Virus record (IMG/VR): IMGVR_UViG_3300044491_002068
Location: 1-64,000 of that record
DNA length: 64,000 nt
Source of the DNA: a virus
Direction: 5' to 3' (one strand)
This document shows, piece by piece, positions 1,071-16,640 of the stretch. Numbering within the stretch: the stretch's first letter is position 1; the number at the start of each line of letters is the position of its first letter. A program made the position numbers and the translations under genes. The notes below the pieces were generated by a model. It saw only the letters and a list, made by a program, of their open reading frames with translations, had not been told where the DNA came from and searched no databases.

Positions 1071-1659
1071 TATCCCATACTTCTTGGGTCTTATTGATGG
1101 GATTGACAATGAACTTATAGCCGAACAAATCACAAAGTTCGGTAAGCCAGTAGGAAACGGCAGTCACCCCCTAGACGATCAAGCAGTAAACGACGGTGAC
1201 ATACTCTTGCCAGATTCACCAGAAATAAACCAATTACTGCTACAGTTAACACGACTCGTACAACACGCATCAGAAAACCAAGAACTAGCCCTCAAATCAC
1301 AATGGGCGGTTAGTCTTAAAGAAGGAAGAAGTGTGGGCCCCCACTCGCATCACGCAAACTATCACATGTACCCCGAAGACTACTGGTCGGCGGTATACTA
1401 CCCTGTCGCAGACAAGTCATCAGCACCGCTTATTCTGTCTGCAACTTGGTGTAACGTGGTAAACAGGCAGGCCCGGATACAGCCACAAACCGGCATGTAT
1501 GTTATCTTCCCGTCCTACATACAGCAATGGACTAGCCGACAAGCCTCATCGGAGCCTAGACTGGAAATCGGCGCAAACTTTGATCCCGCAGAGCCTAACA
1601 CAGAACCAAACGTAGACTTCTCAATCTACGACCGGCGTCCCCCCATCGACACTGCCTGA
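1048..1659 (+). CDS. Putative 2OG-Fe(II) oxygenase (TIGR02466/2OG-FeII_Oxy_5-like), distal His apparently replaced
   Basis: WAV...PHSH...WSAVYYP...PQTGMYVIFPSYIQQW...R.EI..N pattern; AAAGGA RBS before ATG 1048. Confidence 0.7.
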   Translation: MQKIPLVNIPYFLGLIDGIDNELIAEQITKFGKPVGNGSHPLDDQAVNDGDILLPDSPEINQLLLQLTRLVQHASENQELALKSQWAVSLKEGRSVGPHSHHANYHMYPEDYWSAVYYPVADKSSAPLILSATWCNVVNRQARIQPQTGMYVIFPSYIQQWTSRQASSEPRLEIGANFDPAEPNTEPNVDFSIYDRRPPIDTA

Positions 1660-2396
1660 CTATCATTGATTAAGTTCGGCATCCAAATGCGATGCCCCTC
1701 TTGCCCAACAGTTTCGTTGTTGGCGATGTCAACACCGTAACACGCCACGCTCAGATAGGCTACACGCCTGCCAGAAGTTACCGGAAACACTTCGTGCCGC
1801 CCAACATAGTTAGTTGGGTACACGGCCACTGAGCCAGCCTCTGGAGCAAAAGCGTACTCCGCATGAGGGAAATTCAGTTCGCCTCCAGTATAGTCTTCGC
1901 CGCAAGTGTTTAGATAAAGATTTATGCTAATGTTGTTATACATAGAAACCTGATTAGGGGGTGTCTCCCCCCACTCAAACGGAATCTGGTCATCACAGTG
2001 GGGGCCAATGTTCTGACCGGGGTCATAAACTGCGATATGACCTTGCGGCCTCCACCACGCCGTAGTAGCAGCATCAGGAAAAATAGAACAGTAAGTTACA
2101 AGAGCATCATAAATTGCTTTGTCACAAGAATCAACAAAATCTAAAAACTTCTGCGGTGTTTCATCACTACGGGTCTGACCACGCACGTCAAGAAACCTCT
2201 GCGGAGCCATATGAATCTCTTCAATACTAAACTTGAAACCAGTCTGATTTACAGCATGGTCCTCCTTAATGTTGAAAGTCTCTTCGGGCTCGCCCGTCAA
2301 CCAAGCACAATACTCAGTAAAAATAGACTTATCAAACTCAAGAGCGTCTCTACAAATAACGACGCCCATACCTACATGCTCTGCAGAAATCATCAT
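1626..2396 (-). CDS. 2OG-Fe(II) oxygenase ('WWxxxGH' paralogue)
   Basis: WWRPQGHI, PHCDD, YLN...YTGGEL.FP, GRHEV, GRRVAYL, WMP. Confidence 0.88.
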   Translation of the reverse strand: MMISAEHVGMGVVICRDALEFDKSIFTEYCAWLTGEPEETFNIKEDHAVNQTGFKFSIEEIHMAPQRFLDVRGQTRSDETPQKFLDFVDSCDKAIYDALVTYCSIFPDAATTAWWRPQGHIAVYDPGQNIGPHCDDQIPFEWGETPPNQVSMYNNISINLYLNTCGEDYTGGELNFPHAEYAFAPEAGSVAVYPTNYVGRHEVFPVTSGRRVAYLSVACYGVDIANNETVGQEGHRIWMPNLINDSQAVSMGGRRS

Positions 2397-3289
2397 CCCT
2401 CCGAATTAATTAATGTAACTCTATACTGCTCTGAACTTTTATCGAAACCGGCCTCTTCTAAGTAAGTCCTGTAATCCTCCCGTAGCGTGGGCATCCACAC
2501 ATTCGTGCTATTCTCCGCACCCTCGGGATTTAGAAGTGGGTCACAAACGTCTTCCCTAACCTCAGAGTTTGGGGTGCCCTGAGAGTACCACCCAAGATAC
2601 GAGAGCCTTCTACCCTTCCCTACCGGTAACACTTCGTGTCCTGCGACAAAGTTAGACGGGAAGAACAAGATAGAGCCACGCTCCGGCGTGATAGTGCCAA
2701 CATCTTTCAAATAATTGAAGTTGTGTAGACCTTGTGTAAAGTTTCGGCCATTCAAATCATCAGCGTCAACTGAAGAATTTAGATAGGTTACAGTAGAGAC
2801 AACACTTCGTAAAGCAAGTTCCTGCGGGGTTCGGTGAACTCCGTAAATGTACTCTGCGCTAATGTCTGAATGCGAACCAAGATAGACCCCATCACCATAT
2901 GAAACTACATGGCCCTTAACCTTCCACCATACGCAGTTGTACGCTAGAGGGTATCGTGTAAAGTACTTTAGTAAGCAGCGGTCTTTTGCCGCCTCTAGTT
3001 CTTTAAGTAGATTCCTGACCTCATCGCTGGGGTTTAAATGCAATGAGGAGCCCCTTCTAGGCATAGACATATAGGTATCTAAACCAAAAATGTAGCCGCT
3101 TCTATTCTCGTAAGCAACCTCACCAGTCTCCGGATCGACAGTCTCTGTGTACATTTCTGAGAACTCTTCATCGACCAAATTAGATACAGTGTCATAAACT
3201 TTATCCCAATCACAAGAGATAGCGTTTCTAAACAACACCACCCCGTTGCCTAGGTCCTCCGGTTCAGCATCGTTGTGTGATATAAACAT
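2393..3289 (-). CDS. 2OG-Fe(II) oxygenase ('WWxxxGH' paralogue)
   Basis: WWKVKGHV, SHSD, FFPSNFVAGHEV, GRRLSYL, WMP. Confidence 0.88.
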   Translation of the reverse strand: MFISHNDAEPEDLGNGVVLFRNAISCDWDKVYDTVSNLVDEEFSEMYTETVDPETGEVAYENRSGYIFGLDTYMSMPRRGSSLHLNPSDEVRNLLKELEAAKDRCLLKYFTRYPLAYNCVWWKVKGHVVSYGDGVYLGSHSDISAEYIYGVHRTPQELALRSVVSTVTYLNSSVDADDLNGRNFTQGLHNFNYLKDVGTITPERGSILFFPSNFVAGHEVLPVGKGRRLSYLGWYSQGTPNSEVREDVCDPLLNPEGAENSTNVWMPTLREDYRTYLEEAGFDKSSEQYRVTLINSEG

Positions 3290-3298
3290 GTGTCTATT

Positions 3299-4120
3299 CT
3301 ACTTGTAAAGATATGATGTGTCAATCTCTGGATGGCTACAAAAATAACCTAAGAACTGACGTTCATCACGTTTAAACCCACCGCTAACAGCGTGAGACAT
3401 TACAAACAAGTCACTAACAAGCAGGTCACCGTTCTGCCAACTCCACACAAGTTGATTGTATGGATTCAAAACTATTTCAGTCTCAACTACGTCAACACAC
3501 TTAACGAAGAAATTAGTTTCATCGTTTGAGGGCTTACCACCATTAAACGATATCAAATCTACGTCGCCTTGACATATCCTAACAACATCGGCGTTTTTAA
3601 ATGGGTGTTTAACTATAGCATCTCTAGCAACTTTAGTTGTGACGTTTCCCTTTTTATCAACTACAACTTTACTACCTATCACACACTTTCTCAAAAAGTC
3701 AACAACTTCAGATGAGAGTGTGTCTATAATTTTAGAGTTATCTGTGAAATATGTTTTTCCTACATCTGCGGAGCAGGAGAACTTCTGCATGTTCCAAAAT
3801 CCTGCAACAGTAGAATTTTCCAAAGACGAATGAACATGCTCTAAATGCCAGTTAACCGCAAAATCATCCGGAGTGTGCTCACCGTAGCAAAAGGTATGCG
3901 AATGATCCTCGCTGTACCGCCGCAGAACAGAACGATCAAAATCGTCTGAACGGGGAGTCCACCCAACATAATCGCCAATCGCTAAAATTATGTCTATCTG
4001 CTCTTCCTCAGAAGCGAACAATCCACGAAAACCGTAGACGCCTTCTTCTAGAAACTTTTCAGCAAAATACTTTGAGTCCCGAATTATGTCACTAAACGAG
4101 CACTCAACAACGTCAATCAT
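3299..4120 (-). CDS. TauD/TfdA-family 2OG-dependent dioxygenase
   Basis: GVYGFRG, WHLE (HxE), GKTYF.D, IVKHPF, WQNGDLLVSD...MSHA...R: TauD-type motif order. Confidence 0.75.
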   Translation of the reverse strand: MIDVVECSFSDIIRDSKYFAEKFLEEGVYGFRGLFASEEEQIDIILAIGDYVGWTPRSDDFDRSVLRRYSEDHSHTFCYGEHTPDDFAVNWHLEHVHSSLENSTVAGFWNMQKFSCSADVGKTYFTDNSKIIDTLSSEVVDFLRKCVIGSKVVVDKKGNVTTKVARDAIVKHPFKNADVVRICQGDVDLISFNGGKPSNDETNFFVKCVDVVETEIVLNPYNQLVWSWQNGDLLVSDLFVMSHAVSGGFKRDERQFLGYFCSHPEIDTSYLYK

Positions 4121-5178
4121 GACTCAATTGGTACAGGGTCCGTCCCACAGTTAGCATTTTCGTCCAAAACCTCTGCCTCATGAGTTGAACCATACTGGGC
4201 AACACATCGACCCTGATAGACAGGGTTAATGCCTTGATTCTGCTCAGCGCCTGTACTAATGCGGGAATACTCAGACTTACAATACTTCTCGTAATCGTCA
4301 TAAATGTTGTTCATCCACATCGCTGGGCACCACTGGTAACTATCCTCAGGCTCAACAATATTAATGTTTGCGTCCATGTGCGGAGAGCCCTGACCAAAGA
4401 AAGACAAGTAACTATATCGTACACCCGAATTCATACGGCTAACCTGATGTGAAGCCATATAGTTCGTGGGGAAGAAAACGATGTCGCCCTTCTGGGGCTT
4501 GTAGTCGATGCCCAAATGGAAAAACTCTAAATGTCCGCCAGTGAAATTTGTACCATCTAACTCGTCGTCTGTGTCAACAGAGTCATTAAGATAAACTAAA
4601 CATCCACATGTCTGTCTAGCCGCCATCTGACCCCGAGGCATATAACGCACACCTTCAGTCACCTTATAGTTAGTGTCGTTATCACAGTGGGCTCCCAAAA
4701 TACCTTCATCTTCGTAGCGAAGAATATGGCCACGGTTCTTCCACCAAACACAACCCACCATGAGAGGGAAGTAGTCAATGTATCGGAGCAAAGCCTTGTA
4801 GATAACGTCTTCCATATCATGAAAGAATTTTCTTGGAACTTCGGGGGTATCCTCAATAACCGGATGAAGTAGTCGCACAGGAGTAGAAGGAATGTCCTCT
4901 GGCCGATACCTAAAGCCGTCCTCATTAATACCGTACTTTTCACCATCTTCACCAACTATATATTCCCACCTGTTTTGGTGTGAAACTACAGACTTCTCAT
5001 CAATGTATTTAAATACTTCGGTAGGATCGGCAGTTAAAGCGCCACGAAAAACTAGGACACCTCCACCTAAATCCTCAACGTCGAAATCAGCAATTTCCTT
5101 AATAGCGGCGTCATCAATAAGAGGGGTGTCCGGGTGCGGATCACCACTCCGCTCTGGAGGAGTGTTAAAATCAGTCAT
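4117..5178 (-). CDS. 2OG-Fe(II) oxygenase ('WWxxxGH' paralogue)
   Basis: WWKNRGHI, AHCDND, FTGGHLEF, FFPTNYMASHQV, GVRYSYL, WMN. Confidence 0.88.
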   Translation of the reverse strand: MTDFNTPPERSGDPHPDTPLIDDAAIKEIADFDVEDLGGGVLVFRGALTADPTEVFKYIDEKSVVSHQNRWEYIVGEDGEKYGINEDGFRYRPEDIPSTPVRLLHPVIEDTPEVPRKFFHDMEDVIYKALLRYIDYFPLMVGCVWWKNRGHILRYEDEGILGAHCDNDTNYKVTEGVRYMPRGQMAARQTCGCLVYLNDSVDTDDELDGTNFTGGHLEFFHLGIDYKPQKGDIVFFPTNYMASHQVSRMNSGVRYSYLSFFGQGSPHMDANINIVEPEDSYQWCPAMWMNNIYDDYEKYCKSEYSRISTGAEQNQGINPVYQGRCVAQYGSTHEAEVLDENANCGTDPVPIES

Positions 5179-5180
5179 GT

Positions 5181-5924
5181 TTACTTCTTTACTAGAATGT
5201 GGAACCCGATAGCGTGCGGGATGTGGTAAGACGTAATATCGTCTCGCTCATGAATCTGCTCGTAAAAATCAAACAAAGGTTCAATATAATATTTGTCTGA
5301 ATACAAACGCATCATTTCATTAGAAGGTGCCGTATAGATAACACCACCCGACCTTGTTAGATCAATAACCTTATCCAAAAGAGGAGGATTGATGAGCGTG
5401 TCCACCGTGTGGATATGCACATAATCAAACTGCGCCCCATCTAGATTCTCTAACTCTTCCATGTCAACAACGTTGTAATCTCCCTCCCACGGGAACTCTG
5501 GGCGTGTCAAAATGTGTCTCTCAAAAATATCAAGACATTCATTATTAACAAACGTCATGTTGCAGCCCTTACGTTGCATATCAGCAGCAAAATCAAAGTT
5601 TCTGTCAGGAGTCAACATTAACACGTCAGTAGGCTTAGCGATATCAGCAGCCATCTGTGAATAGAGGCCAGTGCAAATGAAAACCATTTCTTTCCATCCA
5701 GCCACTGAACCAGAAATCAAATCCCACACATGCAAATAAAAATCACTGCCAACCGCAATAGCCCGACGATCAAGACCTAAAGATGTCCACTCCGCCTGCA
5801 ACGTTTTAGCCACATCATCATGGAACGAGAAGAAGTCGTAGTCTAATTCACGGGAAGAGTTTTGAGAAAACTCGTAAGTCAGTGCGTTCGCAATTAAAAA
5901 TTTGCTACCAAGAATCTTATCCAT
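5181..5924 (-). CDS. Putative class I SAM-dependent methyltransferase-like protein (divergent)
   Basis: C-terminal half resembles the Rossmann MTase core (AQFDYVHIH...LTRSGGVIY...GFHILVKK); no clear glycine-rich motif I. Confidence 0.45.
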   Translation of the reverse strand: MDKILGSKFLIANALTYEFSQNSSRELDYDFFSFHDDVAKTLQAEWTSLGLDRRAIAVGSDFYLHVWDLISGSVAGWKEMVFICTGLYSQMAADIAKPTDVLMLTPDRNFDFAADMQRKGCNMTFVNNECLDIFERHILTRPEFPWEGDYNVVDMEELENLDGAQFDYVHIHTVDTLINPPLLDKVIDLTRSGGVIYTAPSNEMMRLYSDKYYIEPLFDFYEQIHERDDITSYHIPHAIGFHILVKK

Positions 5925-6213
5925 TAACTCTACCCTTCGCTAACTGCCAGCGATGCCACAACCTACGGCTATTCATCATCACAAGAATATTTATCTCCTT
6001 CAAAGCATCATTAGAGGCGACTGAAGTCCCTTCCAACCGCTTAAACGGAAAGTTATCCTTTAGCGCATCCACGATGCTATCAAACGTGGACGAATTAATA
6101 TCTGAAGTGTCCATGCCTAGAACATACATAATTGACACTATTTCTCGCTCAATATGTGCCAAGTCTTTACTGGCATCATACGTCGGTGTGTTTCTGTTAC
6201 CAACTCTACTCAT
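5917..6213 (-). CDS. Hypothetical protein
   Basis: 98-aa ORF with overlapping start/stop coupling to both neighbours. Confidence 0.7.
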   Translation of the reverse strand: MSRVGNRNTPTYDASKDLAHIEREIVSIMYVLGMDTSDINSSTFDSIVDALKDNFPFKRLEGTSVASNDALKEINILVMMNSRRLWHRWQLAKGRVNG

Positions 6214-6482
6214 TGTGCTAAATCATCCCAGTCTTCCTCGGGAAAAGGAATAGGTGTATTGCGGGCGTTAGTCTCACTGGTAATCATTTCACACAGGTAT
6301 CCCTCTCCTGAAGGAAAGTTCCAAGCAGGAATAGAAGAATCAAAACGCACGGGCTGCTCCTTGACCGACGATGTGTCAGCGGGATCAGGACCGTCATCGG
6401 GCTGACCAAAAGCATTAACGTCAACTCCCGCATCCACGGCTTCGTCTTGAATTGTGCGATCAGTTACCTTGTAGTTCTTCAT
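6210..6482 (-). CDS. Hypothetical acidic protein
   Basis: 90-aa Asp/Glu/Pro-rich ORF, ATGA-coupled on both sides. Confidence 0.7.
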   Translation of the reverse strand: MKNYKVTDRTIQDEAVDAGVDVNAFGQPDDGPDPADTSSVKEQPVRFDSSIPAWNFPSGEGYLCEMITSETNARNTPIPFPEEDWDDLAQ

Positions 6483-6697
6483 GCCTCAAGAGCCTCTAAA
6501 TTCGTCACCATCTTTACCAGCGTCGTATAAGCCGGATAGTCTGGATCGGCATTAGAAACTGGAATCTCATATGCAGAAGTAAGCGTAGCAGTATCAACAT
6601 TTAGCATCATCGCTAACGACACAATGTTTTGATTGAGAAAGTCGATTGCCTTCTCTTTGGCCTTCTGCCGCTGTTCTTCTGAAATTGTTACAGCCAT
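6479..6697 (-). CDS. Hypothetical protein
   Basis: 72-aa helical-looking ORF with GAGGAAAG RBS. Confidence 0.7.
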   Translation of the reverse strand: MAVTISEEQRQKAKEKAIDFLNQNIVSLAMMLNVDTATLTSAYEIPVSNADPDYPAYTTLVKMVTNLEALEA

Positions 6698-6704
6698 TCT
6701 TTCC

Positions 6705-7550
6705 TCACAGTCTAGATATTTCTAGTTTCATACTATTATATGATACACAATCACGATACAGTCGTGCAAGTCTTGGGCGAGGCTCCTCCATCAGATTATT
6801 TTCTGTCGCCCATAGCCTAAACGACAGCGGCATATCTGGTTCTTCTTCAGAAAGAACACATGAACCCGTCTTGAAATATTGTGCTATTTGTTGATCTGGT
6901 AGTTGCATCAAGTCCCTCACAACAGGGTCAGATTCAGCATTATCTACATTAAGCCCAAAATGACTTAGAAGCGTATCAGCGGCCTCTGCGGCGGGCTCAA
7001 CACTACCAGTATGTATCTTCGCCCACTGCCACTCTAACATCAATTTAAAGAACTCATGTAACGTAGCAGAACCAAAGTACGGATGTATCATCGACGTACT
7101 CCTTACCAAACCATCACCCTTCTCGTCCACTTGGGTATAAATAATGTACCCCACATCGGGATCGTGGAACAACGTCAAATGCTTCTGAATCATACTCAAA
7201 AAGTCATTAATGTGGTCTAATACGATTGTACGGTAATCCTCACGACCGTACAACTCGTCCATGGTTCTAGGTAGATGTGTCTCTGTCGAAGAACACAAAG
7301 GGTACATCCAGTGATCGGTGTGATCTTCCTTAGGGCAAGATGCCCAAAGCCTATAAATTTTATTGAAACGATTAACAGCGCCCACCTCTACAGGGCGCAT
7401 CATTGGAGTGATAATGTCGATTAAATCTTGCAAATCCTCATAATCGTTTGGATCATAGCCTGCCTCAGTTATCATCAAGTCTAGCCTAGGCTTAATCTCA
7501 TTCATTTTTTCTTGCAAAGACGCTTTGCGGATATTGTTTGAAAGTCGCAT
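6705..7550 (-). CDS. Hypothetical protein
   Basis: 281-aa ORF with AAAGGA RBS and upstream TGGTAGAAT extended -10. Confidence 0.75.
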   Translation of the reverse strand: MRLSNNIRKASLQEKMNEIKPRLDLMITEAGYDPNDYEDLQDLIDIITPMMRPVEVGAVNRFNKIYRLWASCPKEDHTDHWMYPLCSSTETHLPRTMDELYGREDYRTIVLDHINDFLSMIQKHLTLFHDPDVGYIIYTQVDEKGDGLVRSTSMIHPYFGSATLHEFFKLMLEWQWAKIHTGSVEPAAEAADTLLSHFGLNVDNAESDPVVRDLMQLPDQQIAQYFKTGSCVLSEEEPDMPLSFRLWATENNLMEEPRPRLARLYRDCVSYNSMKLEISRL

Positions 7551-7585
7551 AACTATCCTTTCGCTATGATACTATTCTACCATAC

Positions 7586-8203
7586 TCAGTAGTCCAGTAC
7601 CTCGTCAATGCACTCCCTAATAGTCCAACTCTCACCAGTCGTCAACGGAACATCATCAAGAGGATCGCTTTGCCAATTAAATCTGGTAATCATCTGACCG
7701 TTCCTACCTACAATAAACTTTTCCCAACTATGGGGAATTCTCGCAACAGCCCCACCTGACTTGTTCCATCCCTCCTGTGCCGCATCGGAGGTATCTGCAG
7801 GCGAAGCGGCCTTAACCCTGACAACGTTACCCAGCAAAGCAGAATAAACTAGGCTACCATCTCTACCGTTTACATCAATCTTTTCGGATAAAGGGAACCG
7901 TACAAACGGGTAGACTTGCTTCATCCACGCAGAAATCTCATGATTATCTGACGGTTCCATCTGCCCGAACTGGTTGCACGGGAAACCCACCACACTAAAC
8001 CCTCGGTCCTTAAACTCGTCATGAACCTGCTGTAGTTGCCAAAACTGCCGCACTGTTCTAGCATACGACCAAAAAGTGCTACACTGCGGGGTGTAACCCA
8101 ACTTGGAAACAGTGTTGACAACTAAGGTCACCTTACCATCGAACTGTTGCATGAAATCAGGCTCACCGTCCAACGAATTCATTTGAATGTCATAAACGCT
8201 CAT
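7586..8203 (-). CDS. Glutathione peroxidase-family protein with atypical active site
   Basis: GKVTLVVN.VSK, GFSVVGFPCNQFGQMEP, EKIDVNG, EKFIVGRNG. The peroxidatic Cys position is Leu. Confidence 0.85.
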   Translation of the reverse strand: MSVYDIQMNSLDGEPDFMQQFDGKVTLVVNTVSKLGYTPQCSTFWSYARTVRQFWQLQQVHDEFKDRGFSVVGFPCNQFGQMEPSDNHEISAWMKQVYPFVRFPLSEKIDVNGRDGSLVYSALLGNVVRVKAASPADTSDAAQEGWNKSGGAVARIPHSWEKFIVGRNGQMITRFNWQSDPLDDVPLTTGESWTIRECIDEVLDY

Positions 8204-8523
8204 TGCTTACTCCAAGGATCACGGCCATCTGAAACCTCCCCATAAATTGGGCAAGTCAACATTGACTTTCCAGAAAAAGGATCAATAATATCGACAACTC
8301 CGCCCAACACCCCATTGTCTACCTTGCTACACACAATCTTAACAATACACTCAAACGGTGTATTAGTAGCGCCAAGCATTATGATGTTATTTTCAGAAAC
8401 AGCAGACTCTTCAAAATCTAGTTTACCCTTAAACATATGGGCACTACCATTATCACCATCAGGAAGATGTAAAAGAAACTTCTCGCTACCTAGGGGCGTG
8501 TGAACTGTCATTGAGTATGCCAA
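8200..8523 (-). CDS. Hypothetical protein
   Basis: 107-aa ORF overlapping both neighbours in the operon. Confidence 0.65.
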   Translation of the reverse strand: MAYSMTVHTPLGSEKFLLHLPDGDNGSAHMFKGKLDFEESAVSENNIIMLGATNTPFECIVKIVCSKVDNGVLGGVVDIIDPFSGKSMLTCPIYGEVSDGRDPWSKQ

Positions 8524-9239
8524 TTTGGAACCTCCGGTATTTCAGGGTCTTGAAGATCAACAAGACCATCATGACGTGGCCCAATCCGGTTACCATCAGC
8601 ATCTAAACCAGTACGAATACCGTTCATCCAACTCCACGGCTCATCCTGCATCTTCTTCATCTTTGCCTCGTTATACTTAACTCTGCTCTCAATTAAATCG
8701 GGCTTATCCCAAAGATTCTCTACAGTACACTCTAGATCAGGCATCAAGTTTGAATCAAAGACAAAGAAGAAAGCAAACGGCATACCCTTAGGAAACACAA
8801 CCTCTTTACCAACTTCAGTTATCTTCCAAGCCATCTGTACCTCATCAGGCCACCAATCACTTGGGATAACCGCAGACAGTGGGACAGCACCGTCAACAAA
8901 ATAGTTAGGAGGACCAGTAATCCACGTATGATGGCCCTCTTCTGTGTTGAAAGCCCACCCTAACTGGAAATCCACCATACCAATCTTATTACAATTGGCA
9001 ACCATTCTGTTGTCATGCTCTTCACCAGAAATTAAAGTTGGGACACTATTACCACCATCCCACTTAACAACAACGTCGCAAGGTAACAAAATTTCCCAAC
9101 CACTGACGTTTGCCATGCTTACAGGCAAACATCGGTAGGCGTGCTTGTTATATGTTGCATCCATCCAATCACGGCGTAGGCTAGCCTGCTGAATATGAGG
9201 AGAGCCTTGATGAGTGCGTACTAAAGTAAGTTTACTCAT
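8508..9239 (-). CDS. DUF6065-like protein
   Basis: RRDWMDAT..KHAYRCLPVSMANVSGWEILLP, ITGPPN, IPSDWWP, FPKGMPF motifs. Confidence 0.75.
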   Translation of the reverse strand: MSKLTLVRTHQGSPHIQQASLRRDWMDATYNKHAYRCLPVSMANVSGWEILLPCDVVVKWDGGNSVPTLISGEEHDNRMVANCNKIGMVDFQLGWAFNTEEGHHTWITGPPNYFVDGAVPLSAVIPSDWWPDEVQMAWKITEVGKEVVFPKGMPFAFFFVFDSNLMPDLECTVENLWDKPDLIESRVKYNEAKMKKMQDEPWSWMNGIRTGLDADGNRIGPRHDGLVDLQDPEIPEVPNWHTQ

Positions 9240-10093
9240 CGTGGTGTTTGGTATGTGTAGTTACCGCTGTTGCCCGCCTGCTGTTGTGCTTTCCAACTAG
9301 CCATAGCATAATTATGAATTTCTTCATTAATGATTGCACGCAACTCTTCGTTGTCCATAAGGCTCACAGGTGGGCGAGAGTCAGGGAAAGACGGCTTAGT
9401 TGGTTGTTCATTAGACTGGCCAAAGTCACGAGAAAATCCACCGTGCTGGTGAGCATCATCGTTGTAGTCAAACATGGTCACAGCGGAATACTTAACCCCA
9501 GACTTTACTGGTAGTGCGGCGTGAGCATAGATGTATGTAGAGGGGAAAAAGACAGAATCTCCGGCTTCTGGCTTATAAGAAACATTAAGCAACGGGAAAT
9601 GTAGTTCACCGCCCTCGTAATCATCATTAAGATAAGTCACATTAGACACTGTGCAAATGTATGAGAACCCATGATCCGTGTGTACGCCGAAGTGCTCGTT
9701 CTCTCCGTAGCGAACAAAATTGATTGCTTCCATGTAGTTCATGTTGATGTTGTACATTGCCTGATAGTGCGCTAAACCATCCTTGATTCTGGACGCAACA
9801 TCATTATAGACACTCACTAACTCATCAAATTCTGCAGGTGTCTGAGCAATGTAATCTTCTGTCATCTTAAAGTCAACACAATCACGATACTCTGGCATCT
9901 TAACGCCCTCGCCTACGAGAGAGTCGTGCCACTTGAAGTATTCGTGCTCACTGTTATCTAAAGCAGAGTGTAACCTATCTGGAACATATGTAACGCCATC
10001 AAGACAATTCTTGTACACCACGATACCCAAAAGAGGGTCTCCAATGTACTCGTAGTCGAACTTTGGCTCTATGTTGGTTTTTCCGTATCCCAT
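9236..10093 (-). CDS. Prolyl 4-hydroxylase-like 2OG-Fe(II) oxygenase
   Basis: EAINFVRYGENEHFGVHTD, YLNDDYEGGEL.FP, YAHAALPVKSGVKY (Lys at the 2OG-binding position). Confidence 0.9.
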   Translation of the reverse strand: MGYGKTNIEPKFDYEYIGDPLLGIVVYKNCLDGVTYVPDRLHSALDNSEHEYFKWHDSLVGEGVKMPEYRDCVDFKMTEDYIAQTPAEFDELVSVYNDVASRIKDGLAHYQAMYNINMNYMEAINFVRYGENEHFGVHTDHGFSYICTVSNVTYLNDDYEGGELHFPLLNVSYKPEAGDSVFFPSTYIYAHAALPVKSGVKYSAVTMFDYNDDAHQHGGFSRDFGQSNEQPTKPSFPDSRPPVSLMDNEELRAIINEEIHNYAMASWKAQQQAGNSGNYTYQTPR

Positions 10094-10105
10094 GCGTCTA
10101 TAATA

Positions 10106-10681
10106 TCAAACATACCGTGTGGAGTCAAATCTTTCTAGAACATGCCAAAACGTTGTGATGTTCAGGCGCTCTCCCGAGTTAACTCTAGAAACTTGATGCA
10201 AATACTTCTCGCTGGTAGGGAAAGTGACTAGCGTCCCTGCCTTTGGGTAAAAAAATAAATCTTGGTTTGGAAGAAAAAGATCACCACCCGTGAAATCCTC
10301 ACCATGGTTACTGAAATAAACCAGTGTCGATATATCTCTAGACGGGTACCCCGCATATGTTGAAAGATTCATAGACTTTTCTTGGTAACTGTCGGCGTGC
10401 AGAGACAAATCCCACCCCTCTAATGCGCAAACGACTGACGCTAATTCCTCTACACCAACTTCGCACGAATAGTAGTCTTCGATAAAATCTTTAATTCTAA
10501 TATTTAAATCTTCCATAAGCGGGAAAAGTACTTCACTTTCTCCCGTCTGGACGTACCTGTCATAGGAGTGGCCTTCAACATCGTATCTCTTTAACATGCT
10601 GAGTTCAGAAATAAAGGTATCTAGAGCCGCACTGTCAATAAAGTTTGGGTAAACTACTACACCATCGTACTCTTTAATCAT
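10106..10681 (-). CDS. Prolyl 4-hydroxylase-like 2OG-Fe(II) oxygenase
   Basis: LHADS, FTGGDL, PKAGTLVTFP, YLHQV, GER. Likely start MIKEY (10681) overlapping the upstream stop. Confidence 0.87.
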   Translation of the reverse strand: MIKEYDGVVVYPNFIDSAALDTFISELSMLKRYDVEGHSYDRYVQTGESEVLFPLMEDLNIRIKDFIEDYYSCEVGVEELASVVCALEGWDLSLHADSYQEKSMNLSTYAGYPSRDISTLVYFSNHGEDFTGGDLFLPNQDLFFYPKAGTLVTFPTSEKYLHQVSRVNSGERLNITTFWHVLERFDSTRYV

Positions 10682-11315
10682 TGCCAGTCTCTCGCAAATT
10701 CTCAACTACTGTATAAAACGAAGGAGTAGTCCACCTTTCCCCACTGGTAATAGGGCGAACACCGTGTAAATAGTTTCTATCACCCACGAACATGACGGCC
10801 AACCCCGGCTTCGGAGTAATCTCAATGTTGTGCTGTGGGAAGTACAGGCTTCCGCCAGTAAAATCGTCGTTATAGTAAATCAACGAATTCAAATCATAAG
10901 TCGGGAATGGATTAGGGTTACCGTCGTTAAGTTCTTTGTCAGCGTGAGGTTGCTGCTCAATCCCCTCAAACCACCGCATCAAAACTGGAGGTCTACTGTG
11001 CACTTTGACATCAAAAAACGCTTCTACTTCTGACGCCATTTTAGCAATATACTTTTCAATAATCGCATACACCTCAGGGCTTTTTCTTTCGATTATCTGC
11101 CCGCTACACATTCGATCATTCCAGTACGTGGCATCATAAATGCAGACACCGTTGTCGTCGTACTCTGTCTCTTTCCCGTTTTCCCACTCATCAATCGTAG
11201 GTAGAAACTCTTGAACCTTAAGTAAATCCTCAGGATCAATGAAGTTTTCGAATACGACAATGTTCTCGGTGCTGTCACCGTAATAACCTGATGGTATGAT
11301 TGAAACTTCTTCCAT
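10674..11315 (-). CDS. Prolyl 4-hydroxylase-like 2OG-Fe(II) oxygenase
   Basis: QQPHADKE, YYNDDFTGGSLYFP, YLHGVRPITSGERWT. Confidence 0.9.
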   Translation of the reverse strand: MEEVSIIPSGYYGDSTENIVVFENFIDPEDLLKVQEFLPTIDEWENGKETEYDDNGVCIYDATYWNDRMCSGQIIERKSPEVYAIIEKYIAKMASEVEAFFDVKVHSRPPVLMRWFEGIEQQPHADKELNDGNPNPFPTYDLNSLIYYNDDFTGGSLYFPQHNIEITPKPGLAVMFVGDRNYLHGVRPITSGERWTTPSFYTVVENLRETGND

Positions 11316-11353
11316 GCCCTTATTCTAGTACCTACCTTACTCTACGTCAACAA

Positions 11354-12394
11354 TCACTTGAATGCTGGCGGGAAGTAAGGTGGGAAGAACGGTGGGAAGA
11401 ACGGAGGGAAGAACGGTGGGAAGAAAGGAGGGAAGAACGGAGGGAACCACGGCGGGAAGTAAGGAGGGAAGTAAGGTGGGAAAAAGGGAGGGAAGAAAGG
11501 AGGGAAGAACGGAGGGAAGAACGGAGGGAAATAGGGAGGGAAAAACGGTGGGAAGAAAGGCGGGAAATAAGGCGGGAAGAAAGGCGGGAAGAACGGCGGG
11601 AAATAAGGTGGAAAGAACGGAGGGAAGAACGGAGGGAAATAGGGTGGAGCGACAGGAGTTACCGTAACGCTGTTCGACCAATCTCCAACAATGTGATCGT
11701 TCTCTAACCTGCCTCGGATACTATACTCGGTACCGTTAGTCAATGTTAAAGTATCAGATGTTGCAGTAGGGTTATCTGTTGTGACTGACGATACTGTACT
11801 GCCACCGCCCGTAGGGATGGCCTCAATCCTGATATAGTTGGAATAGCCACCTTCATCGTAAAAGTCTGAGGTAGCAGCGCCTCCCCCAAAATCACCAATA
11901 ACATGCGCCGTCCATGAAACAGTAGACGCAGCGTCGTCACCGTTAGTGGCGCTGATAGTATTCATAGTGACAGGCTTGCGGACAACGATTAGGTCAGCAA
12001 TTTCCATACTATTTTGTGCCCCGTCTTCAGACGTGGTAGTCACCATAAACCTATACGAGCCTCCGGCGTTAACCTGATTTGCTGAAGACGCTCCCGATGC
12101 AACAATGTCAAATGTGAAAGATTGCTCTGAACCCTCCGCAACAGCGCCACCCGGACCTGACGCACTATAACCTAAGCCAGATTGGTTTGCGTTTGTTGGA
12201 AGGTCAGTATCGTGAGTCCACCCTCTAACATCAGCAGTTGTACCTTTTCCTACGTAAGACGGTGTGACGCCAAAAGAAACACTATTACTACTGGTACCTA
12301 TTACGGGGATAGAGCCTCCAGAAGGAGACGGCGTTGTAGTTACAGAACTTTCAGGTAACTTTCCACCTTGTCCTACATCCTTGTTAACTGCCAT
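11354..12394 (-). CDS. Putative virion-associated FN3-like protein with C-terminal (PPxF)24 repeat tail
   Basis: Ser/Thr/Gly-rich beta-type body, FN3-like end (LTNGTEYSIRGRLEN...GDWSNSVTVTP), then 24 PP[F/Y/W/A]F units and a terminal Lys. Directly follows the tail fibre gene. Confidence 0.85.
   Translation of the reverse strand: MAVNKDVGQGGKLPESSVTTTPSPSGGSIPVIGTSSNSVSFGVTPSYVGKGTTADVRGWTHDTDLPTNANQSGLGYSASGPGGAVAEGSEQSFTFDIVASGASSANQVNAGGSYRFMVTTTSEDGAQNSMEIADLIVVRKPVTMNTISATNGDDAASTVSWTAHVIGDFGGGAATSDFYDEGGYSNYIRIEAIPTGGGSTVSSVTTDNPTATSDTLTLTNGTEYSIRGRLENDHIVGDWSNSVTVTPVAPPYFPPFFPPFFPPYFPPFFPPFFPPYFPPFFPPFFPPYFPPFFPPFFPPFFPPFFPPYFPPYFPPWFPPFFPPFFPPFFPPFFPPFFPPYFPPAFK
11360..11647 (-). repeat. 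24 x 12-nt coding tandem repeat encoding PPFF (15), PPYF (7), PPWF (1), PPAF (1)
   Basis: 288 nt = 24 units; synonymous Pro, Phe and Tyr codons vary between units. Confidence 0.95.
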
Positions 12395-12405
12395 AATTGC
12401 ACGCC

Positions 12406-14919
12406 TTAGTCGGAAAGGTCACCCACTGCAACCCATGTGTCTGTCGCTCTTTTTATTAGTGTAGCAGAAGACCACTGATCACGCAACTTAAGACCCGGAG
12501 TAGCATTAATCGTCACGCCCGCACCCGCAGTAATAGTGGTCTGACCGGCCCCAGTCTGCAACACAGTTATTTGCGCACCAACCGGGAACGCAACAGAAGA
12601 ATTAGGGGGCACAGTCAACGTATTGGCTGAACCATTACTGACTTCAACCAACTTGTCCTTATCCCCTAATACTAGCGTATAACTTCCAGCCTGCGCATTA
12701 GTTTTAAGAGTAGAAGACGCAAACTCTCGCTGAGCAGAACCATCACCGACGATAATCTTATCATTCGTGGCATCCCAAGCAATGCGACCTTCTGAAGATG
12801 AAGCAGTAGTTGAAAGCAGTGAAACGGCCACTGCCGTGCCTAGCGCTGAAGCAGACAGAACGGAAGTATTGTTGATGTAGAACGCCTTACCTGAGGCAAG
12901 GTCTATATGCTCTGAAGATGTCCACGAGTCTGTAGCATCTACCCAGTTGAATGTTTTATCTGTAGTTCCTTTAAGGGTGATTCCTCCACCGTCAGCAGTA
13001 GTGTCTGTAGGTGAGCCTACAGATCCCAACTCAATATTTTTATCGTCTACTGAAATGGTGGTAGAATTTACTGTAGTCGTAGTACCATTTACAGTTAGAT
13101 CACCGCTGACTATGAGGTTATCGTCTACTGTCACGGTTCCACCGGCAGAGTCTATTGTCAAGTTTCCTAGTGATGTGTCAATTTCGTTTGTGCCAGTTAT
13201 ACCTATTTGTAAGTTTCCTGCCGTAACGTTACCAGTCACGTTACCAGTCACGTCGCCAGTCACGTTACCAGTCAAATCCCCGGTCACATCGCCTGTAACA
13301 TTACCAGCCACATTTCCTGTTAAGTCACCTGTAACGTCTCCTGTCACGTTGCCGGTCACGTTCCCTGTTACGTTCCCAGTCACATCGCCAGTGACTCCAC
13401 CAGTCAAATCTCCTGTAACATTGCCGGTCACGTTACCGGTCAGGTTACCGGTCACGTTTCCTGTTAAATCGCCCGTAAGGTCGAAGGCGGCATTAGATAC
13501 TGTGGCACCAGAAAGATTAACCGTTCCAGAGAACGTAGACGTTCCGGACGAAGTAATGTTGCCAGTAACATCACCAGTCACGGCACCTACAACGTCTCCT
13601 GTCACATTACCAGTCAAATCACCAGTAACATTACCAGTAACATCACCAGTAACATTACCTGTCAAGTTTCCGCTAACATCACCGTTAACGTTGCCAGTCA
13701 AGCCTCCAGTAACGTCAGCGTTCAGTGTAGCGTCAGACCCGTCAGTACCGGACTCTAAAATTTTACTGGTACCATTTGAAGCATACACATCTCCGGTCAA
13801 ATCCCCAACAACGTTGCCAGTAACATTACCTGTAATGTCACCAGTCACATCGCCAACAAGATCGAAAGAAGCGTTAGAGACAGTCGCACCCAAAAAGTTG
13901 ACCGATCCAGAGAAAGCAGAACTTCCAGATGACGTTATATTGCCTGTCAAGTCGCCGGTCACATCGCCAGTAACATTACCGGTCACATTGCCTGAAACAT
14001 TACCTGTAACATCACCACTCAAGTCACCAGTGACGTTTCCAGTAACGTTTCCGGTTAAATCACCTGTAACGTCACCGGTAACATTACCGGCCACGTTTCC
14101 AGTAACATTACCCGTCAAATCACCAACAACATCACCCGTGACATCGCCTGTCACATTGCCCGTCACATTACCGCTAACGTTGCCCGTCACATCACCAGAA
14201 ACGTTTCCGGTTAAATCGCCTGTAACGTCACCGGTCAAATCGCCAACAAAACTAGTAGAAGTAACAGAAGTCAAACCAGTCAACGACGAATCCATACTAA
14301 TTGTGTTGCCCGACTTAGACAGATTAGAACCAGCAGTGATAGAACTTACACCAGAAAATTGTGTGTAAACAAAAGCGTCAGTATTGAAGGTGTGTACTTC
14401 ATTGGTTCCAGTACCTTCAGAAGTTAAAATGAAACCTTGATTAGCGTTAGATGCCCCTCCCAAAACCCAAGCAGCCTGACCAGCGTACACGCTAGTGTCG
14501 CTATCGGTAGCACGAGTCAAAACGTATGCTGTGCTAACATCGCCCTGAGTTGTAACACTATAGATACCGTTCTGTACACCGGCAGCCTGATTCTTTACCA
14601 GAACACGGTCACCTGCAGTACCGTTAACACCATCTACAGAAATACGGCCATTTGAGCCAGCAGTTAACGTGGCACCTACACCTGAGGAGCCGTTATCGTA
14701 CGTGGGGGTGTTAGCAAGAACGCCTGCTGTCGCTAAATCGACAGCCTCAACCCAATGGACACCTGTCTCAACAGTTGCATCAACATAGTCAGTTGTTGCA
14801 ATACGGTCAGAAGCGTTACTAACCACGATAGACCAGTATGTTCCGTTCCATTGCCATGTACGGTTGCTGACTGTGTGGGTGTCGTTTACACTTGGGGAGT
14901 CAGGGAAGTTAATAGCCAT
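12406..14919 (-). CDS. Tail fibre protein with G[ND][VL]T tetrapeptide repeats
   Basis: N-terminal MAINFP.SP...WQWNGTYW module, GDRVLVKNQ...NGIY module, long TGNV/TGDV/TGDL tracts, C-terminal fibre-tip-like domain (VAFPVG...DTWVAVGDL). Confidence 0.85.
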   Translation of the reverse strand: MAINFPDSPSVNDTHTVSNRTWQWNGTYWSIVVSNASDRIATTDYVDATVETGVHWVEAVDLATAGVLANTPTYDNGSSGVGATLTAGSNGRISVDGVNGTAGDRVLVKNQAAGVQNGIYSVTTQGDVSTAYVLTRATDSDTSVYAGQAAWVLGGASNANQGFILTSEGTGTNEVHTFNTDAFVYTQFSGVSSITAGSNLSKSGNTISMDSSLTGLTSVTSTSFVGDLTGDVTGDLTGNVSGDVTGNVSGNVTGNVTGDVTGDVVGDLTGNVTGNVAGNVTGDVTGDLTGNVTGNVTGDLSGDVTGNVSGNVTGNVTGDVTGDLTGNITSSGSSAFSGSVNFLGATVSNASFDLVGDVTGDITGNVTGNVVGDLTGDVYASNGTSKILESGTDGSDATLNADVTGGLTGNVNGDVSGNLTGNVTGDVTGNVTGDLTGNVTGDVVGAVTGDVTGNITSSGTSTFSGTVNLSGATVSNAAFDLTGDLTGNVTGNLTGNVTGNVTGDLTGGVTGDVTGNVTGNVTGNVTGDVTGDLTGNVAGNVTGDVTGDLTGNVTGDVTGNVTGNVTAGNLQIGITGTNEIDTSLGNLTIDSAGGTVTVDDNLIVSGDLTVNGTTTTVNSTTISVDDKNIELGSVGSPTDTTADGGGITLKGTTDKTFNWVDATDSWTSSEHIDLASGKAFYINNTSVLSASALGTAVAVSLLSTTASSSEGRIAWDATNDKIIVGDGSAQREFASSTLKTNAQAGSYTLVLGDKDKLVEVSNGSANTLTVPPNSSVAFPVGAQITVLQTGAGQTTITAGAGVTINATPGLKLRDQWSSATLIKRATDTWVAVGDLSD

Positions 14920-14952
14920 AGTAATAGTTTACCATAAACTAATGTTAGACAA

Positions 14953-15081
14953 TTAATCTATACCACCTTCACTGCTGGTGCCAGAACTAGAACCAGTGAC
15001 GCTGTAGGTTGCAAACCCCACGTTGTATGGGGCGTTGAGCGTGGAGTAACTATGTGTTGGCGACGAGTAAGTCGTAGCCAT
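14953..15081 (-). CDS. Small Ser/Thr/Gly-rich ORF (42 aa), possibly a gene relic
   Basis: MATTYSSPTHSYSTLNAPYNVGFATYSVTGSSSGTSSEGGID*; ATG overlaps the upstream TGA (TGATG). Below the ORF-track cutoff. Confidence 0.45.
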   Translation of the reverse strand: MATTYSSPTHSYSTLNAPYNVGFATYSVTGSSSGTSSEGGID

Positions 15082-15887
15082 CAGGTAAACCTGAACCTTC
15101 TGGCGAGCAGAATAAAACCGTCACCAGTTACTTCAGATCCTCCGCCGTCATCAAAATAAGTAGAGAAGGATGTGCCTGATGTTTGATACAAAAACGCTTC
15201 ATAATAATGCGATGAAATTGGAGTATCAAAAAAGAAGTAGCCTGAACTCGTATCCAGATCCGACGAGCCTGATAACGGGGAGTTGTACGAGACACGCTTA
15301 TCCGATATCCACCCATGAAGAACAAAATCTCCCACATTGCAAGAACCACTCAACGTTGTTACTGCCACAGAACTAGATGGAGTATTTACCTGCGTATAGG
15401 ATCTAGAGCCTAAAGGCTCAGAAGATATAGAAACCAAATTGTTTGCGGTAATGCAATGGACATGAATAGCCCAGTCAAAACCTGTATCGCCTGCTGGGCA
15501 AAGACCCGAAATTTGCAAATTGCTAGGAAGAGTGCCCGACGCAGGCAACTGAAGAATGGTTATACTTTGCCAAACATCTACAATTGTGTCACCATGTAGA
15601 TCATTGCTCCAAACAGTTGAATAACCAGACACATTTGAAATACTTGCAGAATTGCCAGAAGAATTGCCTCCATCTTCAGCAAATTCGTGAATAATTAAGA
15701 AATCGCCATTTGAAGCACCCAAAGTTGAAGTAGAAACAGTCAGGACATCCTGTCTCGCAGATGCGTAAGCAGAACCGTTATAGGTAGGTGGGATGTAGTC
15801 AACCCAAACCTCGTTAGTCCCCATATAGATTTTGTCTACCTGAGAAGAGCCAACCTTGAAACTATCTGCATCATTCAAGACAGGCAT
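15081..15887 (-). CDS. Minor tail / putative receptor-binding protein
   Basis: N-terminal FKVGSSQVDKIYMGTNEVW adaptor motif typical of fibre-associated proteins; Ser-rich beta-type remainder. Confidence 0.65.
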   Translation of the reverse strand: MPVLNDADSFKVGSSQVDKIYMGTNEVWVDYIPPTYNGSAYASARQDVLTVSTSTLGASNGDFLIIHEFAEDGGNSSGNSASISNVSGYSTVWSNDLHGDTIVDVWQSITILQLPASGTLPSNLQISGLCPAGDTGFDWAIHVHCITANNLVSISSEPLGSRSYTQVNTPSSSVAVTTLSGSCNVGDFVLHGWISDKRVSYNSPLSGSSDLDTSSGYFFFDTPISSHYYEAFLYQTSGTSFSTYFDDGGGSEVTGDGFILLARRFRFT

Positions 15888-15890
15888 GGC

Positions 15891-16640
15891 TCAACCAACA
15901 ATCACATACAACGTGTTTGCGTCAGGTGTCAAAGCGTCATACGCTGATTGCGTCAACTGAACAATAGTGTAAATATCTGATGAAACTGGAACTCTCGTAC
16001 CATTGGAGTTGATGACTCCATTGACATCTAACGGCACGCTAGGTGTCGTTGTACCAATACCGACATTGCCAGAAGCATCAATAATCATCCGCTCCGAACC
16101 GGCAGTATCAAAACGAATCTTATCCTCATCCGAAGACTCCTCAACCTGAATCTTCGTATCCTCATCCAAATCCGTAATAAAAGGAGACGCAGGCGGCGAA
16201 GCACCAACCTCAATCCAAAACGAATCATAATACACAAACGTCTTACCCGTATCAGACTCATACCAAATCTGACCAACAGACGGAGAACCCGGAGCAGTAT
16301 CAGACACCGTAGCATACGCAGTAATATCAACCCACGAAATAGTGCCAGCACCATTAGTCTGCAACACCTGAGAAGTAGACCCATCAGAAGTTGGAAGAGT
16401 AAACTGGTCCGTAACAGCCAAAGACGTGGCAGTAAAAGCATCATCCGTCTTCAGAGTGTCAGCAGAATCACGATACAAAGTCGTGTCACCAGTGGCAGAA
16501 CCAGAACCCCAAGTAATCTTACCGCCCGCATCAATATTTATACGGTTCTGTGAATCACCATCCACATTTGCGGCGATAGCCTGCGACGATGCAGACCCCA
16601 ACTCGTCTAAAGTTATAGGAGTTTTAAACTTCTTTGCCAC
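15891..16640 (-). CDS. Tail fibre-associated protein
   Basis: GTG start after GAGG; modules TLYRDSADTLKTDD, GQIWYESDTG, GNVGIGTTTP and C-terminal LTQSAYDAL...TLYVI. Confidence 0.75.
   Translation of the reverse strand: MAKKFKTPITLDELGSASSQAIAANVDGDSQNRINIDAGGKITWGSGSATGDTTLYRDSADTLKTDDAFTATSLAVTDQFTLPTSDGSTSQVLQTNGAGTISWVDITAYATVSDTAPGSPSVGQIWYESDTGKTFVYYDSFWIEVGASPPASPFITDLDEDTKIQVEESSDEDKIRFDTAGSERMIIDASGNVGIGTTTPSVPLDVNGVINSNGTRVPVSSDIYTIVQLTQSAYDALTPDANTLYVIVG

What the first reader, a model, noticed from the sequence alone, without database searches (positions are those of the whole stretch)
11360..11647. The PPxF repeat is selected at the protein level and is patterned
Seen: 24 units with invariant P-P-x-F. 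Synonymous codons are scrambled (CCA/CCG/CCT/CCC, TTC/TTT, TAC/TAT), which is not what fresh slippage produces. Tyr falls at units 1, 4, 7, 10 (12-residue super-period), then 15, 16, 23, with one Trp and a closing PPAF-K. There is no charged residue until the terminal Lys. Known: Pro-Pro-Phe-Phe is a turn-forming motif in the cyclic peptides cyclolinopeptide A and antamanide, which is an analogy only. Inference: a regular, very hydrophobic scaffold (self-assembling fibril, membrane or particle adhesion) or a multi-core precursor. Hydroxylation could be needed to make it soluble or cross-linkable.
Basis: partly seen in the sequence, partly recalled or inferred. Interest (0 to 1): 0.75.

Follow-up and report, generated by a model that had tools for sequence, protein, structure and literature searches.

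The report
Phage proline-phenylalanine tail, selected and patterned
An uncultured estuarine phage ends a tail-fibre-cluster protein in 24 Pro-Pro-x-Phe units that are kept by selection on the protein. This tail travels with collagen-type hydroxylase genes in many phage fragments, so it is a candidate substrate for phage oxygenases of unknown role, but no chemistry has been shown.

Summary
Window 11360-11647 (minus strand) encodes (PPxF)24 followed by one Lys and a stop. It is the C-terminus of a 346-aa protein (11354-12394) with two fn3-like beta-sandwich domains.

- **Not an artefact:** two other IMG/VR contigs and an independent 2020 estuary contig also carry 24 units. One 2025 contig has 18.
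- **Protein-level selection:** in 13 disjoint pairs of close relatives there are 108 synonymous and 22 non-synonymous codon differences. All 22 fall at x. Pro1 and Pro2 are invariant and Phe4 is 99.9% Phe over 1639 units.
- **Pattern:** the Tyr/His spacing of three units is significant (this array p=0.007; Tyr-type family z=7.2). Synonymous sites of Tyr-type arrays do not show it, so it is not a fresh 36-nt duplication trace.
- **New here:** 46 of 49 tails without a further domain end PP[S/A/R/G]F-Lys. Phe codons are 92% TTC against 40% in the window's genes. The tail is fused to unrelated N-terminal domains.
- **Gene linkage:** fibre gene, PPxF protein, P4H-type oxygenases and DUF6065 occur together in both directions of search.

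Best reading: an extended proline-aromatic rod that the adjacent hydroxylases modify. No chemistry or structure has been shown.

This scan has already noted the same module in at least 18 other genomes. No paper in the library describes it.

The parts
11354..12394 (-). Gene for the 346-aa PPxF-tailed protein (stop codon included). AAGG lies 9-12 nt before the ATG, and the gene starts 11 nt after the stop of the fibre-like gene.
11648..12394 (-). N-terminal 249 residues, modelled as two beta-sandwich (fn3/Ig-like) domains. Residues about 140-249 resemble roughly 100-aa tandem modules of giant proteins.
   Evidence: Pfam itself gives no hit.
11360..11647 (-). 24 PPxF units (96 residues); x string = YFFYFFYFFYFFFFYYWFFFFFYA
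11357..11371 (-). C-terminal cap PPAF-K. Across the family the cap is PP[S/A/R/G]F-K in 46 of 49 tails that have no further domain.
11322..11350 (-). Sigma-70-like match TTGACG-17-TAGAAT in the 38-nt spacer before the first oxygenase gene. This is a consensus match only.
10674..11315 (-). 2OG-Fe(II) oxygenase (PF13640) with HAD...H...R visible in the translation. Nearest solved relatives are B. anthracis P4H and prolyl 3-hydroxylase 1.
10106..10705 (-). 2OG-Fe(II) oxygenase (PF13640) with HAD...H...R
9236..10093 (-). 2OG-Fe(II) oxygenase (PF13640) with HTD...H...K. Nearest solved relatives are B. anthracis P4H (3itq, 5hv0) and, weakly, PBCV-1 P4H (5c5t).
8508..9239 (-). DUF6065 protein with an invariant Cys37 and an HAYxC[LF]P motif. 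It is a constant partner of the module.
12406..14919 (-). 837-aa tail-fibre-like protein with (TGDV/TGNV)n repeats, the upstream neighbour in most related loci

Best explanation
The tract is the translated C-terminal module of a protein encoded at the end of a myovirus tail-fibre gene block. That protein has two fn3-like domains followed by (PPxF)24-Lys. Selection holds Pro-Pro-x-Phe fixed and allows only F/Y/H (rarely W) at x, with polar aromatics preferentially three units apart. With a Pro-Pro pair every four residues the chain cannot form alpha or beta structure. The most likely form is therefore an extended polyproline-II-type rod, about 30 nm long if fully extended (96 residues at 3.1 A each). 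It would work as a stiff stalk or sticky filament. A PPII helix has three residues per turn, so x residues three units (12 residues) apart lie on one face. Tyr at units 1, 4, 7 and 10 would then form a single polar stripe. The P4H-type 2OG oxygenases encoded directly downstream most likely hydroxylate its prolines, making an otherwise uncharged and very hydrophobic polymer compatible with water and stiffer. Shown: coding, purifying selection, pattern, cap, gene linkage. Inferred: PPII conformation, Tyr stripe, hydroxylation, virion location.
For: Reality and length: (24 units in L003, L102 and the X5 contig). Selection: 108 synonymous against 22 non-synonymous differences in 13 disjoint pairs, all non-synonymous ones at x, where neutrality expects about 1:3.5. 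Pro1 and Pro2 are 100% and Phe4 is 99.9% over 1639 units, and 92 of 94 arrays are uninterrupted. In the laid runs, 8 of 9 variable sites within the repeat are third codon positions. Pattern: lag-3 z=7.2 in 52 Tyr-type arrays with flat synonymous-codon identity across lags; this array p=0.007. Stalk reading: relatives place the tract between fn3 or PASTA domains and Cys-rich knots, Hint domains or further fn3 domains. Linkage: an oxygenase lies 0-1.5 kb downstream in most of about 120 PPxF loci that have room. In the reverse direction, 44 of 50 DUF6065-anchored loci with at least 4 kb upstream hold a PPxF ORF upstream on the same strand. Enzyme type: PF13640, intact HxD...H...K/R, and nearest solved relatives are prolyl 4- and 3-hydroxylases. 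Phage restriction: only 2 hits in 185,579 species genomes, and both carry the same phage module.
Against: There is no chemistry, no proteomics and no structure. AF2 gives the tail as coil at pLDDT about 53. The related loci are mostly kin, so synteny may partly reflect shared descent. Six of 50 DUF6065 loci show no tract within 6-8 kb upstream. His-type arrays show periods of 5 and 7 units, which are not multiples of 3, and these periods also appear in Pro codon identity. The PPII-face rule is therefore not general. P4H similarity is weak (E about 5e-6). Nine oxygenases are more than one substrate obviously needs. A promoter-like site separates the gene from the oxygenases.
Confidence: 0.5

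Rival explanations
1. The protein tract is real and selected, but the super-period has no structural meaning. It is a remnant of unequal crossing-over that copies blocks of 3 (or 5, 6, 7) units. Only the mix of F/Y/H matters, not their spacing.
For: In His-type arrays Pro2 codon identity rises at lags 5 and 7, the same lags as the amino-acid pattern. Length variants differ by whole blocks: X8 lacks 6 units, L061 and L116 differ by 6 units, and L010 and L026 differ by 5. In this array the regular part covers only the first 12 units.
Against: In 52 Tyr-type arrays, and in this array, synonymous codons show no lag-3 excess while the amino-acid pattern does. The same (YFF)n start recurs on arrays joined to unrelated N-terminal domains. 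Non-F residues are depleted at lags 2 and 4.
Confidence: 0.3
2. The tail is an unmodified hydrophobic adhesion or envelope-insertion element. The neighbouring oxygenases act on something else, such as host metabolites, other proteins or nucleic acid, and are only syntenic.
For: The tract has no charge and is about half aromatic. Phage oxygenase arrays are known without any named protein substrate, and a secondary-metabolite role has been proposed for them (PMC2938197). A promoter-like site lies between the genes. The window holds nine oxygenases plus a TauD-like gene.
Against: The linkage holds in both directions and across arrays with unrelated N-terminal domains. The nearest solved relatives of the two constant neighbours are protein prolyl hydroxylases.
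Confidence: 0.17
3. The tail is a multi-core precursor. It would be cut into PPxF-based peptides, possibly cyclised like PPFF-containing orbitides, after tailoring by the oxygenases.
For: It has many identical short units next to many tailoring-type enzymes. Three nearby ORFs have no family assignment.
Against: There are no spacer, recognition or cleavage sequences between units. No protease, macrocyclase or transporter family was found in 144-16640. The supposed leader would be two fn3-like domains. In relatives the tract lies between folded domains or before a Hint domain. Unit numbers of 5-38 and a conserved Lys cap fit a polymer better.
Confidence: 0.03

Closest known systems
Chlorovirus PBCV-1 prolyl 4-hydroxylase and that virus's own proline-rich repeat ORFs (Eriksson et al. 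1999, recalled from my own knowledge; structure 5c5t)
   Same: A virus encodes both a P4H-type enzyme and tandem proline-rich repeats. 5c5t is among the solved relatives of the 9236-10093 enzyme (weak, E 0.008).
   Different: The PBCV-1 repeats are charged (Pro-Ala-Pro-Lys type), the host is eukaryotic and there is one enzyme. Here the polymer is uncharged Pro-aromatic, the virus is a phage, and three adjacent (nine in all) oxygenases plus DUF6065 are present. Hydroxylation is shown there and not here.
Tandem dioxygenase array of Synechococcus phage Syn9 (Iyer, Abhiman, de Souza and Aravind 2010, PMC2938197)
   Same: [quoted passage not shown] The window has nine oxygenases, a TauD-like gene and DUF6065 with an invariant Cys.
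   Different: That paper names no protein substrate and proposes secondary-metabolite synthesis. Tryptophan halogenases are part of that array and were not found here. The DUF6065 protein has no tblastn match in GenBank phages.
Plant hydroxyproline-rich glycoproteins (extensins) and collagen-like fibre proteins of bacteria and phages
   Same: These are extended proline-rich rods whose prolines are hydroxylated by P4H. Extensins also carry periodic Tyr.
   Different: The tail has no Gly-X-Y (no Gly at all) and no Ser-Pro(3-5) motif. Half of its residues are aromatic, and oligomeric state and glycosylation are unknown.
[quoted passage not shown]
   Same: These use the same residues. They form stiff fibres through an aromatic zipper, and hydroxylating the Pro changes hydrogen bonding and mechanics.
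   Different: They are free tripeptides in crystals and fibres, not a 96-residue polymer with Pro-Pro pairs. This is an analogy only.
Pro-Pro-Phe-Phe turn of cyclolinopeptide A and antamanide
   Same: The four-residue sequence is the same.
   Different: Those are single motifs in small cyclic peptides of plants and fungi. Nothing here indicates cleavage or cyclisation.

Membership tests
Collagen-like triple helix | Gly at every third residue (Gly-X-Y) | tested here: not met
   There is no Gly in the 96-residue tract, and the period is 4 residues.
Extensin / hydroxyproline-rich glycoprotein | Ser-Pro(3-5) motifs with Tyr cross-link motifs | tested here: not met
   The tract has only Pro-Pro pairs and no Ser.
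Viral P4H plus proline-rich repeat system (PBCV-1 type) | Virus-encoded P4H-type 2OG oxygenase with an intact HxD...H...K/R motif | tested here: met
   Three adjacent ORFs match PF13640 and the motifs are visible in the translations. Nearest solved relatives are 3itq/5hv0 (E 5e-6), 8k0e and 5c5t.
Viral P4H plus proline-rich repeat system (PBCV-1 type) | Virus-encoded tandem proline-rich repeats | tested here: met
   (PPxF)24
Viral P4H plus proline-rich repeat system (PBCV-1 type) | Enzyme hydroxylates the repeat | not testable with these tools
   Only gene linkage is available.
RiPP multi-core precursor | Recognition or cleavage sequences flanking each core | tested here: not met
   The units are contiguous without spacers.
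RiPP multi-core precursor | Dedicated protease or macrocyclase gene in the cluster | tested here: inconclusive
   Pfam found none in ORFs of 144-16640, but 5181-5924, 6705-7550 and 8200-8523 have no family.
Syn9-type tandem dioxygenase array | Several tandem 2OGFeDO genes of different families | tested here: met
   Eight ORFs match PF13640, one matches PF13759, and one is TauD-like, all within 144-11315.
Syn9-type tandem dioxygenase array | Tryptophan halogenase genes in the array | tested here: not met
   No such family appears among the scanned ORFs.
Syn9-type tandem dioxygenase array | dUTPase-fold protein with a conserved Cys | tested here: inconclusive
   DUF6065 has an invariant Cys37. 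Its fold was not predicted here.
fn3 domain (N-terminal part) | Match to the Pfam fn3 model, or a confident fn3 fold | tested here: inconclusive
   There is no Pfam hit. The Foldseek top hits are tandem fn3 receptors, but on a model with mean pLDDT 56. Relatives with other N-termini do match PF00041.
Polyproline-II helix | PPII backbone geometry | not testable with these tools
   AF2 gives non-regular coil at pLDDT about 53. This needs CD or NMR.

The most novel reading that the evidence does not exclude
Aquatic phages make a so far undescribed biological polymer. It would be an enzymatically hydroxylated Pro-Pro-aromatic-Phe rod with a Lys cap and a face-specific Tyr/His stripe, used as a fibre-associated stalk or adhesive. 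This polymer would be the long-sought protein substrate of the orphan tandem 2OG-oxygenase arrays of phages.
Probability: 0.35. Interest if true: 0.8.

Novelty: new variant of a known kind. Interest (0 to 1): 0.66.

Why it matters
Tandem 2OG-Fe(II) oxygenase genes are common in aquatic phages, are usually filed as auxiliary metabolic genes, and have had no named substrate since they were described in 2010 (PMC2938197). A short, chemically simple and strictly conserved polymer encoded next to them makes that question testable with synthetic peptides and recombinant enzymes, without needing a cultured host. The polymer would also be a new natural proline-aromatic material. Its synthetic tripeptide counterparts are already studied for stiffness and piezoelectricity (PMC8113556).

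Tried and rejected
Neighbourhoods were taken from IMG/VR loci instead.
- The GenBank phage collection gave no match for the region, the protein, two relatives or DUF6065. No cultured carrier was found; the low-complexity filter limits this result.
- The N-terminal domain has only near-identical relatives plus one truncated 66% homologue, P0001. Its contig ends before the tail, so it cannot show whether homologues lack the tail.
- Complex prediction on three copies of residues 186-346 gave no verdict. It counts neither for nor against.
- AF2 gave a low-confidence model, so it says nothing about the tail's shape.
- No RNA holder is listed among the sequencing runs.
- The ESM Atlas gave only sub-threshold leads to fn3 / tail-tip J Ig-like clusters.
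- Literature searches for PPFF with phage, hydroxyproline with phage fibres, and DUF6065 found no description.
- Considered and dropped: PPxY/PPxF as a WW-domain or EVH1 ligand (these are eukaryotic partners and this is a phage of bacteria), a cross-beta amyloid (excluded by Pro-Pro every four residues), and an assembly artefact or another reading frame.
- Caveat: arrays were picked with a PPxF pattern. That could hide broken units, but 92 of 94 arrays are uninterrupted.

Full report
**What is there.** The window is part of a 105-kb IMG/VR virus record. It encodes a tail sheath, a major head protein, a family-A DNA polymerase and a ribonucleotide reductase. Its head protein is closest to those of Gordonia and Brevibacterium phages, at 45-48% identity. 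Nearly all long ORFs lie on the minus strand.

ORF 11354-12394(-) follows an 837-aa fibre-like gene after 11 nt, with AAGG before its ATG. It encodes 346 residues. The first 249 model as two beta-sandwich domains whose best PDB matches are tandem fn3 receptors, but the model is weak at mean pLDDT 56. The rest is 24 uninterrupted PPxF units, one Lys and a stop.

**Is it real?** L003 and L102 are two other IMG/VR contigs. Both carry the same gene with 24 units and differ from the window in the repeat by six synonymous Pro third-position changes and one Ala-to-Ser change in the last unit. The 130 nt of flank that were aligned are identical.

Logan contigs from independent studies were also laid on the region:
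- A 3973-nt contig of an estuary run from 2020 (X5) spans 11101-12400 without any indel.
- A contig of a 2025 run (X8) skips 72 nt, which is exactly six units and removes the irregular Y-Y-W part. This may be a true allele or a k-mer assembly collapse.
- Eight of the nine variable sites inside the repeat are third codon positions.

The longest exact internal repeat is 32 nt, so ordinary reads can resolve the array. An assembly artefact is excluded.

**Selection on the protein.** All but a few lie in ORFs read in the PPxF frame.
- In 13 disjoint pairs of close arrays of equal length there are 108 synonymous and 22 non-synonymous codon differences. All 22 are at x, mostly F/H, H/Y and F/Y exchanges.
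- Counting sites in CCN CCN TTY TTY, neutrality expects about 3.5 non-synonymous changes per synonymous one.
- Over 1639 units Pro1 and Pro2 are 100% and Phe4 is 99.9%. x is F 62%, Y 18% and H 17%. Of 94 arrays, 92 are uninterrupted.
- Arrays diverge faster than their flanks, for example 4.9% against 1.0%. This suggests exchange among units or a mutational hot spot, filtered by selection.
- Pro codon usage in the repeat is close to that of the window's genes, which fits an old array. Phe is 92% TTC against 40%. This second, synonymous-level constraint may reflect avoidance of long T runs, which is my inference.

**The pattern.** The perfect (xFF)4 start of this array has a permutation p of 0.007. 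In 52 distinct Tyr-type arrays, a non-Phe x is followed by another at lag 3 with probability 0.51 against 0.33 expected (z=7.2). Lags 2 and 4 are depleted. Codon identity at Pro1, Pro2 and Phe4 is flat across lags. The 12-residue period is therefore not the trace of a recent 36-nt duplication.

His-type arrays behave differently. Lags 3, 5 and 7 are enriched, and Pro2 codon identity rises at lags 5 and 7, which is a duplication trace. These arrays are related to one another, so the z-scores overstate independence.

A PPII helix has three residues per turn (established knowledge). Under that geometry, x residues 12 residues apart share one face. Tyr at units 1, 4, 7 and 10 would form one stripe, and Y15-Y16-W17 would ring the rod. 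This is inference, and the 5- and 7-unit periods show it cannot be a general rule.

**New family features.**
- Of 97 distinct tails, 49 end at the repeat. Of these, 46 end in one Lys after a last unit whose x is S, A, R or G. Another 20 carry short Cys-rich ends and 5 carry long C-terminal domains.
- Protein-database relatives join the tract to fn3 or PASTA domains, and some add a Hint/intein-type domain after it.
- None of the other arrays shares this protein's N-terminal domain, so the tract is a portable module. A position between folded domains fits a spacer or stalk.
- Unit numbers range from 5 to 38.

**Linkage to oxygenases.** Three PF13640 oxygenases start 38 nt downstream (10674-11315, 10106-10705, 9236-10093), followed by DUF6065. 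Six more 2OG-type genes lie in 144-5178. All three neighbours show HxD...H...K/R in their translations. The nearest solved relatives of 9236-10093 and 10674-11315 are B. anthracis P4H (both), PBCV-1 P4H (9236-10093, weak) and prolyl 3-hydroxylase 1 (10674-11315); the third, 10106-10705, matches only a weak 'putative hydroxylase' entry.

In the PPxF-anchored loci, most of those with downstream room have a homologue of 10674 or 9236 within 0-1.5 kb, and then DUF6065. This holds for arrays with small, fn3, PASTA or very long N-termini. Anchoring instead on DUF6065 gave more than 557 IMG/VR hits. Among the best 80, 44 of the 50 loci with at least 4 kb upstream hold a PPxF ORF, always upstream and on the same strand.

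The pattern occurs only twice in 185,579 species genomes, and both are MAG contigs carrying the same phage module. Much of this linkage could be shared descent, and no chemistry exists.

**Comparison with what is known.** The closest published systems are PBCV-1 P4H with its proline-rich viral repeats (my own knowledge; PDB 5c5t appears) and the Syn9 dioxygenase array. For the Syn9 array, Iyer et al. proposed secondary-metabolite synthesis and named no protein substrate (PMC2938197). Collagen and extensin membership fail on their defining motifs. [quoted passage not shown] No paper in the library describes PPxF tracts in phages.

This scan's own notes already record the same module in at least 18 other genomes, including a note of the 12-residue super-period. 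I re-tested the linkage and the period here and did not rely on those notes.

**Verdict.** Protein-level selection and patterning are supported. The scaffold reading is plausible, the precursor reading is unlikely, and hydroxylation is a well-founded but untested hypothesis.

Noticed in passing
window 11101 (inside oxygenase gene 10674-11315): Contigs of three independent runs (X2, X5, X8) all stop matching the window at the same base. They continue with one shared unlike sequence, which points to a mosaic or recombination boundary inside the first oxygenase gene.
   Followed up: no
window 11415-11486: A contig of run X8 lacks exactly 72 nt (6 units), which removes the irregular Y-Y-W block. 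This is either a length allele or a k-mer assembly collapse.
   Followed up: partly
window 144-11315: Nine 2OG-Fe(II) oxygenase ORFs (eight PF13640, one PF13759) and a TauD-like ORF lie within 11 kb, together with DUF6065 and a glutathione-peroxidase-like ORF (7586-8203).
   Followed up: partly
window 12406-14919: The upstream fibre-like gene is itself built of 12-nt-period repeats, (T-G-D/N-V/L)n, with weak matches to the T4 gp5 C-terminal beta-helix. Two different four-residue repeat proteins therefore sit side by side.
   Followed up: no
L021, L111, L113: Some contigs carry two PPxF-tailed genes. One lies next to the oxygenases and the other 7-9 kb away behind another fibre-like gene.
   Followed up: no
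L130, L142, L149, L152, L164, L180: These DUF6065-anchored loci have 6-8 kb of upstream sequence but no PPxF tract. They would be useful natural controls for whether another proline-rich substrate replaces it.
   Followed up: no
window 11360-11647: The gene holds 24 consecutive Pro-Pro pairs, so translation should depend strongly on the host's EF-P. This is an inference from the established role of EF-P at Pro-Pro motifs.
   Followed up: no
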